Shown one piece after another: positions 2,142 through 14,197 of a DNA stretch of 64,000 bases (within the stretch, counting starts at the first letter, position 1; the number at the start of each line of letters is the position of its first letter). The notes below the pieces were generated by a model. That model did no database searches and had not been told where the DNA came from. It saw only the letters and a program-made list of their open reading frames with translations. The position numbers and the translations under genes are program-made. The stretch covers positions 51,646,001 through 51,710,000 of the forward strand of contig OX597831.1 of assembly GCA_951406725.2 (NCBI GenBank), in the 5' to 3' direction. The stretch is from Octopus vulgaris (Eukaryota).

Positions 2142-3939
2142 CTGGAAAAAAGACAAACAAATAAAAAAAATAAAATAGGAAGGGAAACCAAAAAATGGAA
2201 ATTTTTTTTTGTCACTGGGAATTAACGGAACAGAACAATGGCTAGGCTTCCACAACACAACACTGAATCTATAAATACTTCAAATGTAAACCTACTTAAA
2301 GTCACCATCACCACTGCCATTGCCACCATCATCATCATCATCATTTAACATTTACTTTCCCATGCCTGCATGATTTGAATGGAATTTGTTCAGACAGGTT
2401 TTCTAAAGCTGGATACCCTTTCTATTGTCAACCTTCATTTATTTCTAAACAAGGTAACATTTTTCTATGGCCAGACATGATTTTCACAGAAAACTGGAAA
2501 CAAACGCCACCACTTGTGTGACTGATACTCATTTACAACCATCACATGATGTCAAGACAAGGGTACACACAACACCCACACATGTATATGACAGGCTTTT
2601 TTCAGTTTTCTTCTACTAAATCCACTCACAACGATAATGGACTGAACCGTAACTAATCTGCACATCCTCTGATAACCTACAGATGGTGATTTGACCGTTT
2701 CCCCTCACAGCTGCACGTACATCTCCAACGTTTTTCTCAATTCTGCTGGTTGTAGGTCCCCAGAACATTCATCAATATCAACATTTTTTCAGCCATCTTG
2801 GAAACGTCTAAATCACTCGTACACTTGTGTGTGGCTCATACACTTTCTGCAACTTTACACAAGCCTTTGAGCAGTCATTGCCATGACAACTTTCTCTGTC
2901 ATGGTCAATGCGACAATCACATATCACATGTTACGTCAAAGCACTGCTATAAACAGCAGAAATGTGCTAGAATGTTAAAACTTAGTGCACATGCACATCA
3001 GAGATCAAGGTCAATCTGTGCTAAGCAGCTTCACTCTGTGTGCTTTAGCTTTGTTACTATGGTAACAGTCTGGATACTTATTGATCAAACCTCGTACATT
3101 AATAAGCAAATTTTTTTTGCGACCTTATTTCAGTAATTGCTAATTTCTGTTAATAATGGTAACTTTTAAGCAGTTTTATATTACCTGAGCAAAAGTATAT
3201 GTCTTAGGCAACTGAATATTCTCTTATAATTACAATGTACAAGTACCCCTCTCGTATGTTGGTGCCACAATGAAGAGCTAGCTTCATTAATCCATCTTCT
3301 GTGCACCCTTTGGGGACTGGGGAGCAAGCAAGGGTAGTGTTGAGATGTCCCTTAGTTCTGAAAACCTTCCTTGTGCTTGCACCAGAAAAGCATTCATACT
3401 GTTCACAATGCAAAAAGGATGGGAAATGAGCAAAGAAAGTATAAGGTCATGAGGACTTAGCAACTTGTCTAGTGCTGGTGCTACAAGAGAATGCACCCAG
3501 CATACTCTGCAAAGTGGTTGGCAATAGGAAGGGCATCCAGTCATAGAAATTAAAATGGCATGTACAAGCACCAGCCTATAAGAGCAGTGACTCCCAATAA
3601 AAAAAGACTTGAATCGTGATGACTCATCCAATCCATGCCAGTATGGAAAGCAGCCATAAAAGTGACGATGAAATGCAAGATTCAAAAGATTTTTCTCACA
3701 ATTCCTTTCCTCGTGAAATGAATGTGATTTATTGGTCTCTTTTGCTGAACCACAAAGCTATGAGGATGTAAAAAAATCAACCCTAGACTTCAAGCTGTGG
3801 TGGTTGGGGGACGGACATCACAAATTGACCTTGGACTCTGTTGTGCATGTGCATTAAGTTTTAATGTTGTAGCCCACTTCCGCTGTTTATAGCAGTGCTC
3901 AGTAGGAAGGTCTGTAGCACATGATCGTTGCATTGACCA

Positions 3940-8121: not shown

Positions 8122-8744
8122 AAAAAAATGTTATAGTGATTAAATAAAAATAAGAATGAATGCCAAGTTCAATAATAAGTTTATACATTAAAACTAGTTT
8201 TAATAATTCATATAAGAATGGGGAATCTCAGTGAGGTGAGTTGAAAATATGTTGGATTAATAGCTACAAGATTAGTGGTTCACAGCTTGTCACTAATAGC
8301 ATAGTGTGTCCACAAACATATCCATTTCTTTATAGTCCAGCCATGAGATAGTTTGCTGATGAAAGCTGCAGGAACATCATAAAATAGGCATTGAATTTAA
8401 GTATTTTCTCTTAGAAGTAAGTACTGTCAGGTTGATACACTACATGATGAGATCAATGGTCCACCAATCAGTCATCGTCGTCATCATCATCATTTAATGT
8501 CAGTTTTCCATGCTGGCATGGGTTGGATGGCTTGACCAGAGCTGGCAAGATCACGCTCCATTGTTGAGGTATGATTTCTATGCCTGGATGCCCCTCCTAA
8601 CACCAACCGCTCCACAGAGTGTATTGGGTGCTTTTTATGTGACACCAGTACCTGTGCTTTTAATGTGGCAATGATTTAGCATCAGATGAATAACATGGTG
8701 TAAAAAGAAAACAGAACAATATTTAGTAAGAAATAAGATGTTAC

Positions 8745-8850
8745 CTTCCCTACCGCCACTGAACTTTACGCGAATTCCTTTGTCCAAGTATTTAGACAAA
8801 TCTAAGATAGTCTCCTTTCTTTTCCGTTCTTTGTTCTTGTCAGTAACAGA
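8745..8850 (-). CDS. LSM7: LSM7 coding exon 2 (SVTDKNKERKRKETILDLSKYLDKGIRVKFSGGRE)
   Basis: Peptide matches the LSM7 N-terminal Sm1 region (KKESILDLSKYIDKTIRVKFQGGRE type); acceptor ttcccaacag, donor G|GTAACA, 106 nt, ends phase 1. Confidence 0.95.
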
Positions 8851-9360
8851 CTGTTGGGAAAGAATGAACAAACTGGTGAGATAAAAAGTTATCGAAGCCA
8901 GATAGGTTAAGGATAAAAAAAATAATAAATAAAATAAACAAAAATCATGGAACAACTGTTGATTTTATTTTGAGTACAATTGAATGTAAACATGTTTACA
9001 CTTACCCAATTTCCTGTCCTCAAAACCATTGCATTTTTACTTCCATGTTAAATATTTAACTAGTCTCTCTTCCCTAAGAATATATCTCCCTAGAACTTCA
9101 TTTGTAACCAGTTTTTTTAATTTTTACATTTTGATCATTAACAATCATCAATTACTGAATTGCCCTTTATTTCGACCCCAGTTCTTTCTTCTTTGGGACA
9201 ACACCGAGAATAAGCCAGTACCTGAACATCATAAGACTTACTAAGAACCAGAGTTCTAAGTAAGACTTTTAAAAAATCCTGCTTTTCAATACTTTGCATT
9301 AGATGTCACCTTTTTTTCATTTCTTGTACCTCTATCTGGCTGGGTAACCACATACCTCCT

Positions 9361-9785: not shown

Positions 9786-11055
9786 TCTCTTCTGACATAA
9801 ACTAAATATGCTTTTGAATGTACTTTATTGCTAATTTAGGTGGTGATGGTTGGGGGGGGGGGGGGGTTGTAAGGAGAAAGTATACAACACAGTATGTGTG
9901 AAACTACTATTGTTGAACATGGAACTGGATGTTTTATCAGTAACTAGATCTAAGTACTGTTCCAAGTTCAACTCTTACCAGGCAAAATCCAGATATTGAT
10001 GCTTGTTATTTTTTTTGGACAATTTTAATAACTCTACTTTCTTACTTAAAGAAATTTGGTATTCTTTCGGTATTGGTACTTTAATTGGGTTTCAGATTCA
10101 ATGAATTAGTTTTGAATTCTGTACTGCAATTTAAGTTTCAATGATTAAACAAGACTTGGTATAATTTATAGAGCAATATGAGGTACTTTAGACGATTCCT
10201 TCGCTATATATTGGTAAGAGTTTCTGGTGGAGTTTTGGAATGGCTACCTCTCGGAGTACCATATTTCATAAGGAAGGAAAGAGTATGAAAGTGAGGAAAT
10301 CTAAACATTTTAAAGACTATAAGATATGCGACTTTAAAGTACAAACATTCTAAAATTCTGCGGAGTTTCTTTGGTGACCATTGCACAAGTACTCTCTCTT
10401 TGGTTTCATTTTCTCGTAAGACATTATTACAATCACGGGCAAATTGCGACTGGCGGGACTTTCTTAATGGCACACCTGAGCCGTGCCGTACTCTGTAATT
10501 TATGCTGAAAAACACGACTAATTAATTGTACCAATAGCAAATAATTAATGCACCAATACCGAAAGAAAACGAGAAATTTTACATAAGAGTCTCTTGTTTC
10601 AAAGTAACCAACACAGTAGATTTATGGGAAATGAGGTAGTTTTATGAAAACGAATAACCAACAAATCTATTAGAAATTATAACTCTACCTCCTAATTTGA
10701 ATCCTGTTTTAACATTGTACATTCATTATATTAAAACATCAAGCTTAGTATATATATAAACAGCCGAAATCACTAAGATGATCCGGTTCCCGACTGAAGA
10801 TTAGAGGCTTCGAGTGACCCGTCGGTTTTTTGTGTCGTCTCCTTGTGTGTTTTTGCGTTCTTGTCCCACTTTGTAATTTATATTTTATATTAAATTCTAT
10901 ACATATATATATATATATGACCATTTTCAAAGAGAGAAAACATTTCCATTTTGTATGTTAAACGACATGTGCGTGTTTGTAAGTTATATTCCCTAAAGAT
11001 AATGGGTATTACAAAAATGGAAACTAAATGAAAAGGATTTAAAATTTATAATGAC

Positions 11056-12433: not shown

Positions 12434-12628
12434 GGTCCCGGGTTGAATCGGGGTTAACCACAGTAAATAAGGTACTCAATACATAGCAGAGTAAATTAAT
12501 TTATTTTATAGAAGGAGCTTCTACAGGACTAGAACTGTTTTATTCAAAAGAAATCATCAGGAAGCCCTGATGATTTCTTTTGAATGAAACAGTTCTAGTC
12601 CTGTAGAAGCTCCTTCTATAAAATAAAT
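12431..12628 (-). mobile_element. Short PLE-like remnant: 63-bp inverted repeat with two hammerhead copies, between (TA)n tracts
   Basis: Arms 12499-12561 and 12566-12628, loop AAGC; CTGATGA-TTTCTTTTGAAT-GAAAC-AG..CT-GTA-GAAGCT motif. Confidence 0.75.
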
Positions 12629-12634
12629 AAATAA

Positions 12635-12702
<68 letters not shown>

Positions 12703-12940: not shown

Positions 12941-13220
12941 GTTATTGTTATTAATATTATTATTATTGTTTTTACGTATTATTTTTGTATTCATATTCGT
13001 GTAACATCGTCCGTTTTTCTGTTTTTGTTTTGTATACATTCGAAGCTTTCTTCCAACAAATCTAATGCGCTTAGCTTAGTTTTTCCTTGTGGCTGGCCAG
13101 ATAGGAGCAATCTCAAGATTAATCAGCCGAAATTGCGAGGATGATCCGGTTCTTGACTGAAGATTGAGGGCTTCGAATGTCCCGTCCGTGTTTTTTGTGT
13201 CGTCATCAAAATGTTTTGCG

Positions 13221-13268
<48 letters not shown>

Positions 13269-13314
13269 AATATATGAAAAACGACAGAAGATATGTTAAA
13301 AAATATATATATTT

Positions 13315-13800
13315 GTGTCACTTAAAAAGATTCTCACAAAGGCAAAATTGTCTTCTAAAATTACGGATGCAAAAGTAAAAAAATGTGGTAGATCGAACTG
13401 TGCAACATGTCCTAACCTATTGGAAGGATCAGAATTCTTCTTTAAAGAGGGACAGAAATTTAAGATCAAATCTAACTTTACTTGTGCCTCTGAAAACATA
13501 ATTTATGTTATTAAATGCTCGGGCTGCCACCAAGACTACGTGGGTTCCACGGGACTATCACTCAGGCGCAGATGCACACTGCATCGACAACAGATTGCAT
13601 TCCCAGAATATAGAATGATACCTTTTAGTGAGCACATTGAGAAATGCGCAAAGCAACTACTGCCACAATTTTTAATCTTCCCATTTTACCAATGTGCTTT
13701 CGGATCATCAACACAAATGAGACTGAACAAGGAAACATTCTTCATTGAAAAGTACAAACCCAGACTCAACCATCCGAACATACTGACACAGAGAAATTAA
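13315..13800 (+). pseudogene. GIY-YIG endonuclease domain of a Penelope-like element (uninterrupted frame, no true ATG, RT missing)
   Basis: 161-codon open frame with IY-x10-YVG plus downstream Arg, Glu and Asn motif residues; begins at the inversion junction. Confidence 0.88.
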
Positions 13801-13931
13801 CAAGGAAAAGGAAAAAAATTTTTAAGCGATTATCTCCCTACACCGGAAAAATCACTCACTACCTCCCTTATTTAGAAATCTCCTGGAAATAAAAACAACG
13901 ATAATTCCATGCAATATAAACATAACGTCAC

Positions 13932-13971
13932 AAGAAATTTGAAAAGCTACACGCGAAACCGGTAATTTCTT
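13932..13971 (+). ncRNA. Minimal type I hammerhead, U3:A8 core variant (predicted)
   Basis: AAGAAAT-TTGAAAA-GC(TACAC)GC-GAAA-CCG-GTA-ATTTCTT: 7-bp stem I, palindromic ACCGGT stem III, GUA triplet; located in the PLE pLTR. Confidence 0.8.
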
Positions 13972-14147
13972 AAAAATTTTTAAATTATGTCATTTTAAGG
14001 AAAAAAAAAAAAAAATTTTTCCAATATTCTCCAGACATTTTGACACAAATATATATATTTTTTAACATTTAAGTCTTCTGTCGTTTTTTCACACTTTACT
14101 ATTTTCTTATATATTCACCCACGTGCTTTACCAAACAAACTTTCTTA

Positions 14148-14197
<50 letters not shown>

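What the first reader, a model, noticed from the sequence alone, without database searches (positions are those of the whole stretch)
13932..13971. Natural U3:A8 hammerhead in the pLTR of a young GIY-YIG Penelope element
Seen: AAGAAAT-TTGAAAA-GC(TACAC)GC-GAAA-CCG-GTA-ATTTCTT, about 130 nt after the endonuclease stop. The core reads UUGAAAA instead of CUGAnGA. Established: positions 3 and 8 form a Watson-Crick pair in the active fold. Inference: the double change is compensatory, implying selection for cleavage, and stem II is reduced to 2 bp.
Basis: partly seen in the sequence, partly recalled or inferred. Interest (0 to 1): 0.72.

Follow-up and report, generated by a model that had tools for sequence, protein, structure and literature searches.

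The report
Penelope hammerhead with cleavage footprints
A young jumping-gene family carries a tiny hammerhead RNA motif, predicted to cut itself slowly as a pair, whose U-A core pair is an already published variant; other copies in the genome show joins at or across the predicted cut site that likely record real cutting in the cell.

Summary
The motif is real: a type I hammerhead shape at 13932-13971, cut predicted after A13964, in the 3' pLTR of a 5'-truncated Penelope-like copy. U3 and A8 are family-wide: 780 exact-context matches, one non-U3, no non-A8. Natural U3:A8 is published, also in Penelope elements (PMC3088659, PMC4209133), and this scan noted U3:A8 and A3:U8 before in this genome.

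Fixation in a 99%-identical family shows nothing about selection; relatives do. A sister clade uses A3:U8 and close relatives use U3-G8. Helix III is a palindrome, so cleavage would need a dimer.

New here are three weak footprints of cutting. The family is a mosaic with one switch across the cut site. One copy joins a 28S rRNA piece exactly to nucleotide 1.1. 5' junctions at the site number 9, against 1 and 4 at controls.

Against efficient cleavage: copies run through the site, relatives spread with off-register stems, and U3 can pair with A17. Cleavage is untested.

The parts
13932..13971 (+). Minimal type I hammerhead motif, U3:A8 core, 2-bp stem II, palindromic helix III
   Evidence: sequence; numbering; 780 family matches
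13932..13938 (+). Stem I, 5' strand (position 2.1 = 13938)
   Evidence: 7 pairs with 13965-13971
13939..13945 (+). Core positions 3-9; U3 = 13939, A8 = 13944
13946..13954 (+). Stem II: G10.1-C11.1 and C-G, 5-nt loop; the loop differs between subfamilies
13955..13958 (+). G12-A13-A14-A15.1
13958..13963 (+). Palindrome ACCGGT: predicted 6-bp helix III between two motifs
   Evidence: active-like dimer -14.1 kcal/mol, monomer +3.1
13964..13965 (+). Predicted cut between A17 and A1.1; lies inside the family's mosaic switch interval (about 13952-13984)
   Evidence: hammerhead numbering (inference)
13965..13971 (+). Stem I, 3' strand
13318..14156 (+). 5'-truncated copy of a 3,994-bp Penelope-like unit, with the 3' tail, ending in (TA)n
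   Evidence: 98.3% over 845 columns to the natural full unit of L090
13321..13800 (+). End of ORF2: CX4CX2C linker and GIY-YIG endonuclease with CCHH residues; no RT in this copy
   Evidence: Pfam GIY-YIG E=0.0037, below the curated cut-off; open RT-EN frame in L051
13257..13320 (-). Short inverted piece of the pLTR at the 5' junction, beside a (TA)n tract
   Evidence: 81% to 14041-14114 reversed

Best explanation
This is a minimal type I hammerhead motif in the 3' pLTR of a young Penelope-like retrotransposon, and it likely cuts its own RNA after A17, slowly and only when two motifs pair through the ACCGGT palindrome, perhaps helped by the element's protein. The 3:8 pair is likely kept by selection, but any pairing seems to do (U:A here, A:U in a sister clade, U-G in close relatives, C:G in an old family). 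Only a fraction of transcripts would be cut. Cut ends would sometimes be joined again, by RtcB-type ligation or by an end-to-end jump of the reverse transcriptase, to the element's own RNA, a sister subfamily's RNA or a host RNA, and then copied into the genome. The window's own copy is truncated and has no partner motif on its strand, so it is likely inert. Shown: anatomy, family counts, 3:8 states, mosaic, junction sequences. Inferred: dimer, cleavage, ligation or jump.
For: Same scaffold, different 3:8 pair: with A8, 1,961 matches, 98 of the first 100 U3; with non-A8 and non-C3, 1,146 matches, first 100 = 80 A3:U8, 18 U3-G8, 2 mismatched; with C3, 26 matches, 7 C:G and 19 mismatched. A3:U8 copies lie behind RT/EN remnants at about 65% nucleotide identity and form one clade, with stem I covariation such as AUAUC/GAUAU, GAGUC/GACUC, AUGUC/GACA. 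Dimer energies. Mosaic of a U3-G8 parent and a U3:A8 parent: 20 switches among 170 diagnostic sites against a shuffled mean of 83, minimum 54 in 10,000; one of four main switches lies between -12 and +21 of the cut site. L205/L212: a 184-nt 28S rRNA piece joined to nucleotide 1.1 without microhomology, inside (TA)n. 5' junctions at the site 9 against 1 and 4 at controls, pooled p=0.017. A Penelope hammerhead cleaved only with its protein in PMC11167929; RtcB closes hammerhead-cut retrozyme RNA in PMC7229834.
Against: No cleavage or RNA end was observed. Among 47 of 48 copies that reach the ORF1 start, 28 extend upstream past the site and none begins clearly at +1. Only 1 of 136 U3:A8 places of this loop type has (TA)n right after A17; the copies whose rows I saw end about 148 or 190 nt further on. 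18 of 81 sampled copies, and all 9 U3-G8 places seen, have stem I one nucleotide out of register. U3-A17 pairing is favoured by 1.4 kcal/mol in the dimer, like the inactive C3-G17 form in PMC3884650. In a type III hammerhead only the G:C swap rescued the 3:8 pair (PMC9901934). Hammerhead mutants did not affect insertion in vitro and no RNA-seq ends were found at the site in PMC11167929. The junction excess is small: p=0.09 against the downstream control alone, and 2 of the 9 are internal deletions or rearrangements. The rRNA chimera is one event, found by a search aimed at the site.
Confidence: 0.62

Rival explanations
1. The fold is kept for a non-catalytic job, such as RNA dimerisation or protein binding, or is a decaying relic in the youngest families; cleavage is negligible and the joins at the site are template switches in a conserved, AT-rich stretch.
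For: Subfamilies with off-register stem I, U3-G8 or A17 multiplied. Copies read through the site. The switch interval is identical in both parents, which favours homology-driven switching. 5' ends cluster at +39 to +77 (9 of 47 copies), not at +1. PMC11167929 and PMC9901934 as above.
Against: A:U versus U:A is a double change at a tertiary pair that matters for catalysis, and mismatched states are rare. The remaining core letters are shared at 65% ORF identity, although my patterns selected for them. The rRNA join has no microhomology and falls on the exact nucleotide.
Confidence: 0.26
2. Cleavage is efficient and obligatory: every cycle goes through a cut monomer that is closed to a circle, and reverse transcription around the circle rebuilds the motif and the tandem pLTRs.
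For: On a monomer running from +1 to A17, three internal crossovers explain the mosaic and the fourth boundary falls on the ends by itself. Tandem units spaced 3,994-3,996 bp read through the motif. The recombinant with an extra A, which restores the register, makes up 63 of 81 sampled copies against 4 without it. The model was proposed in PMC4209133.
Against: Poor cores and off-register stems spread widely. Low in vitro rates of minimal Penelope hammerheads (PMC4209133). Read-through fits uncut tandem transcripts just as well.
Confidence: 0.12

Closest known systems
U3-A8 minimal hammerheads in Cercyon Penelope-like pLTRs of Schistosoma mansoni (Cervera and De la Pena 2014, PMC4209133; parts 1-2 of 4 read, supplement file 2 searched, file 1 not searchable)
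   Same: Type I motif in a pLTR, U3-A8 core (about 1,300 hits there), G10.1-C11.1, predicted dimer, mostly single copies from truncated elements.
   Different: The Schistosoma minimal motifs are described with a 7-8 bp helix II, an extra base after A9 and no helix III loop. Here stem II is 2 bp, there is no extra base, helix III is a 6-nt palindrome, and relatives carry A3:U8 and U3-G8.
Penelope hammerheads with a small palindromic helix III (Drosophila virilis, rotifers, shrimps, mosquitoes; PMC4209133)
   Same: Palindromic helix III, dimer needed.
   Different: The D. virilis motif has a 6-bp helix II and a 2-bp helix I; here 2 bp and 7 bp.
Natural U3:A8 hammerheads and 2-bp stem II (Perreault et al. 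2011, PMC3088659; passages read)
   Same: C3/G8 covary to U3/A8 in nature; stem II often has 2 bp; insertions next to C3 occur.
   Different: Those passages give no A3:U8 or U3-G8 family and no Penelope context.
PAc Poseidon hammerhead of the green anole (Frangieh et al. 2024, PMC11167929; parts 1-2 of 4 read)
   Same: pLTR hammerhead; two 3' ends forming a tail; uncut RNA seems to be the main template.
   Different: C3:G8 core overlapping the ORF start, Poseidon clade. Here the motif lies about 215 nt before ORF1, and genomic joins at the site are seen.
U6/LINE-1 chimeras made by RtcB (Moldovan et al. 2019, PMC6789731; abstract and start of introduction read)
   Same: Host RNA joined to a retrotransposon RNA and then inserted.
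   Different: Here the host piece is 28S rRNA and the join is at a predicted hammerhead cut; ligation and RT jumping are not told apart.

Membership tests
Type I minimal hammerhead of Penelope-like elements | Core U4 G5 A6 A9, G12 A13 A14 A15.1, U16.1 H17 | tested here: met
Type I minimal hammerhead of Penelope-like elements | Literal C3 and G8 | tested here: not met
   U3 and A8; a published variant (PMC4209133, PMC3088659)
Type I minimal hammerhead of Penelope-like elements | Watson-Crick pair between 3 and 8 | tested here: met
   U:A here; U:A, A:U, U-G and C:G across relatives
Type I minimal hammerhead of Penelope-like elements | Stems I and II, G10.1-C11.1, palindromic helix III | tested here: met
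   stem I covaries across families
Type I minimal hammerhead of Penelope-like elements | Position in the pLTR | tested here: met
   present in both repeats of tandem copies L053, L089, L090, L148
Type I minimal hammerhead of Penelope-like elements | Self-cleavage after position 17 | not testable with these tools
   only indirect genomic joins
Rfam hammerhead models | Covariance model match | tested here: not met
   no hammerhead hit at E<=10
EN+ Penelope-like element | RT followed by C-terminal GIY-YIG with CCHH | tested here: met
   811-aa open frame in L051; relatives carry PF00078 and PF01541; window EN weak in Pfam
EN+ Penelope-like element | Partial tandems, inverted 5'-truncated copies, 30-40 bp tail | tested here: met
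   features as in PMC8557442 (passages)
Neptune or Nematis clade | CX2-5CxxC linker before the endonuclease | tested here: met
   CX4CX2C; definition in PMC8557442
Neptune clade in particular | Placement in an RT tree with named references | not tested
   no named reference sequences were on hand; Neptune and Nematis not separated

The most novel reading that the evidence does not exclude
The genome holds direct fossils of Penelope hammerhead cleavage in vivo. The cut monomer is a real replication intermediate whose ends get joined, so that subfamilies recombine at the cut site and host RNAs are captured onto nucleotide 1.1; the young family arose by such a join and spread after one added A restored the hammerhead register. 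The lineage also runs on A3:U8 and U3-G8 cores that I did not find in print.
Probability: 0.3. Interest if true: 0.72.

Novelty: new variant of a known kind. Interest (0 to 1): 0.46.

Why it matters
Whether Penelope hammerheads cut in cells and matter for transposition is open: PMC4209133 had no in vivo evidence, and PMC11167929 found cleavage dispensable in vitro. This family is young (99.3-99.5% between three full copies), has copies with an open RT-EN frame, and offers a natural series at positions 3:8, 17 and the stem I register, plus joins at the predicted site. That makes the question testable. About 3,100 motifs of this scaffold are almost all non-C3:G8, so CUGAnGA searches miss the whole lineage. 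The U3:A8 pair alone is ordinary.

Tried and rejected
Rfam scans gave no hammerhead. Monomer folding is not significant. Private mutations in this copy: rejected. Fixation within the family as proof of selection: rejected, since the copies are about 99% identical. Copies ending at A17 as the normal 3' end: rejected, one case. Full-length copies starting at +1: not found. A tree-based order of events: the first tree was poorly supported, and the second nests the family among U3-G8 copies, but the family is a recombinant, so I read no simple reversion from it; one row (L148m4243) is a misassigned upstream stretch and was ignored. The idea that the rRNA piece is a common discrete pseudogene: only 1 of 20 other places has the same ends, the other 19 are longer rDNA pieces. 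Sequencing runs: no RNA holder listed; the four runs laid are contigs and cannot show ends. Searches for A3-U8 in print and for joins at the Penelope cut site (listing only) found nothing relevant. Lunse et al. 2017 and Przybilski and Hammann 2007 were not held and may cover these variants; supplement file 1 of PMC4209133 could not be searched.

Full report
Observation. The quoted letters stand at 13932-13971. They map onto a type I hammerhead: 7-bp stem I, core U3 U4 G5 A6 A7 A8 A9, a 2-bp stem II starting with G10.1-C11.1, G12-A15.1, U16.1 and A17 at 13964. A15.1 to U16.1 is the palindrome ACCGGT. The active-like monomer costs +3.1 kcal/mol and the double-hammerhead dimer scores -14.1. The monomer fold is not better than shuffles (z -0.37) and Rfam has no hammerhead hit.

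The element. The motif lies 132 nt after the stop of a GIY-YIG frame. Window 13318-14156 is a 5'-truncated copy, 98.3% identical to a natural 3,994-bp unit, with a short inverted piece at 13257-13320 and (TA)n on both sides. Full copies carry an ORF1 and an overlapping RT-EN frame, open over 811 residues in L051. The CX4CX2C linker fits Neptune or Nematis as defined in PMC8557442 (passages); I did not separate the two. Three full copies are 99.3-99.5% identical, so 'young' holds. My scan of the window found no second motif of this family, so this copy has no partner in cis.

Is U3:A8 fixed? Yes. A 33-letter pattern with free positions 3 and 8 has 780 matches, and the first 100 listed are all U3:A8. 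One match has another base at 3 and none has another base at 8. In so young a family this reflects descent, not selection.

Is the pair selected? Relatives with the same scaffold say probably yes. With A8 there are 1,961 matches, 98 of the first 100 U3. With other bases at 8 and no C3 there are 1,146; the first 100 are 80 A3:U8, 18 U3-G8 and 2 mismatches. With C3, under a slightly looser pattern, there are 26: 7 C:G and 19 mismatches, which I read as decayed copies of the U:A and A:U families. The A3:U8 motifs sit about 180-320 nt behind RT/EN remnants, at about 65% nucleotide identity, in a clade with support 100, and their stem I covaries. The patterns fixed the other core letters, so their conservation is partly built in.

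How good is the ribozyme? Probably poor. Of 81 copies sampled on contig C1, 63 have stem I in register and 18 carry an extra U before position 3; all 9 U3-G8 places seen are off-register too, and these subfamilies multiplied. In the window's family U3 can pair with A17, which is favoured by 1.4 kcal/mol in the dimer, whereas an older C17 subfamily has no such gap. The C3-G17 trap is discussed in PMC3884650 (passages). In a type III hammerhead only the G:C swap rescued the pair (PMC9901934, passages), while PMC3088659 cites in vitro activity for U3:A8.

Ends of copies. In the rows I saw copies end about 148 or 190 nt past the site (coordinates), the known tail. One inverted copy in L003 passes into (TA)n right after A17, 1 of 136 such places. 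Of 48 copies that reach the ORF1 start I scored 47: 28 extend upstream past the site, 19 start downstream, 9 of these at +39 to +77, none clearly at +1. Most templates therefore held an intact motif, uncut or rejoined.

Footprints at the site. First, the family is a mosaic of a U3-G8 parent and a U3:A8 parent: 20 switches among 170 diagnostic sites against a shuffled mean of 83 and minimum of 54. The four main switches lie near -2100, -740, -440 and between -12 and +21; an insertion shared with the U3-G8 parent narrows the last to about +8. By simple arithmetic one of four switches would fall in a given 33-nt interval of a 4-kb unit about 3% of the time, but the interval is identical in both parents, which favours switching there. 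Both parents are off-register; 4 of 81 sampled copies are recombinants that stay so, and 63 have one more A, which restores the register. Second, 9 copies have a 5' junction at the site against 1 and 4 at two control positions; with match rates of 44, 38 and 50 of 81, p is 0.017 pooled, 0.019 and 0.09 singly, and 0.039 for 7 against 4 after dropping internal rearrangements and one duplicate. Third, in L205 a 184-nt GC-rich piece is joined to nucleotide 1.1 inside a (TA)n target. It comes from a tandem array that is 28S rDNA. The join has no microhomology, and 1 of 20 other places holds a piece with nearly the same two ends. RtcB joining of such ends is known for U6/LINE-1 (PMC6789731, abstract) and for retrozyme circles (PMC7229834, passages); an RT jump would look the same. 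Each line is weak; together they lean towards occasional cleavage.

Comparison with what is known. Natural U3:A8 and 2-bp stems II are in PMC3088659 (passages), and U3-A8 in Penelope pLTRs in PMC4209133. PMC11167929 found a protein-assisted Penelope hammerhead, not needed for insertion in vitro, with no RNA-seq ends at the site. I found no A3-U8 report and no report of joins at the cut site (listing only), but two key papers were not held. Earlier notes of this scan report U3:A8, A3:U8, G3:C8 and U-G in this genome; none matched the words for breakpoints or rRNA chimeras. I had counted the pair states before reading them.

Verdict. The headline is a known variant; the value lies in the natural series and the possible in vivo footprints. 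Interest 0.46.

Noticed in passing
window 41262-41212, minus strand: Hammerhead shape with a G3:C8 core, 7-bp stem I, 5-bp stem II after an extra base and a palindromic helix III, upstream of a (TA)n tract; likely another Penelope pLTR.
   Followed up: partly
window 12487-12640: Near-perfect inverted repeat between (TA)n tracts; the plus arm holds a C3:G8 hammerhead-like core at about 12564-12600 (seen by eye; not picked up by the scan).
   Followed up: no
window 10780-10830 and 13135-13195: Two related segments with CTGAAGA followed by a short GAA or GAG motif; possibly remnants of another retroelement end.
   Followed up: no
L090 about 3611-3680: ORF1 and ORF2 overlap, with a T TTT TTA run as candidate -1 frameshift site followed by a GC-rich stretch; no pseudoknot was tested.
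   Followed up: partly
pLTR, +39 to +77 after the cut site (window about 14000-14040): 5' ends cluster here in 9 of 47 copies that reach ORF1; a transcription start or the A/T palindrome could explain it.
   Followed up: partly
window 13321-14140, runs X2 and X9: Some contigs carry clustered T>C changes on the plus strand, as A-to-I editing of antisense RNA would give; the runs are only guessed to be RNA and no matched DNA run was laid.
   Followed up: no
L234 804-980: A second, older 28S rRNA piece with nearly the same ends as the one captured in L205, joined to a different sequence.
   Followed up: partly
L059 and L199: L059 has a short duplication starting at the cut site; L199 lacks the whole motif by an internal deletion ending at nucleotide 1.1.
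   Followed up: no
window 8635-8964, minus strand: Frame that holds an LSm7-like exon (label recalled, not tested); the element probably lies near or inside a host gene.
   Followed up: no
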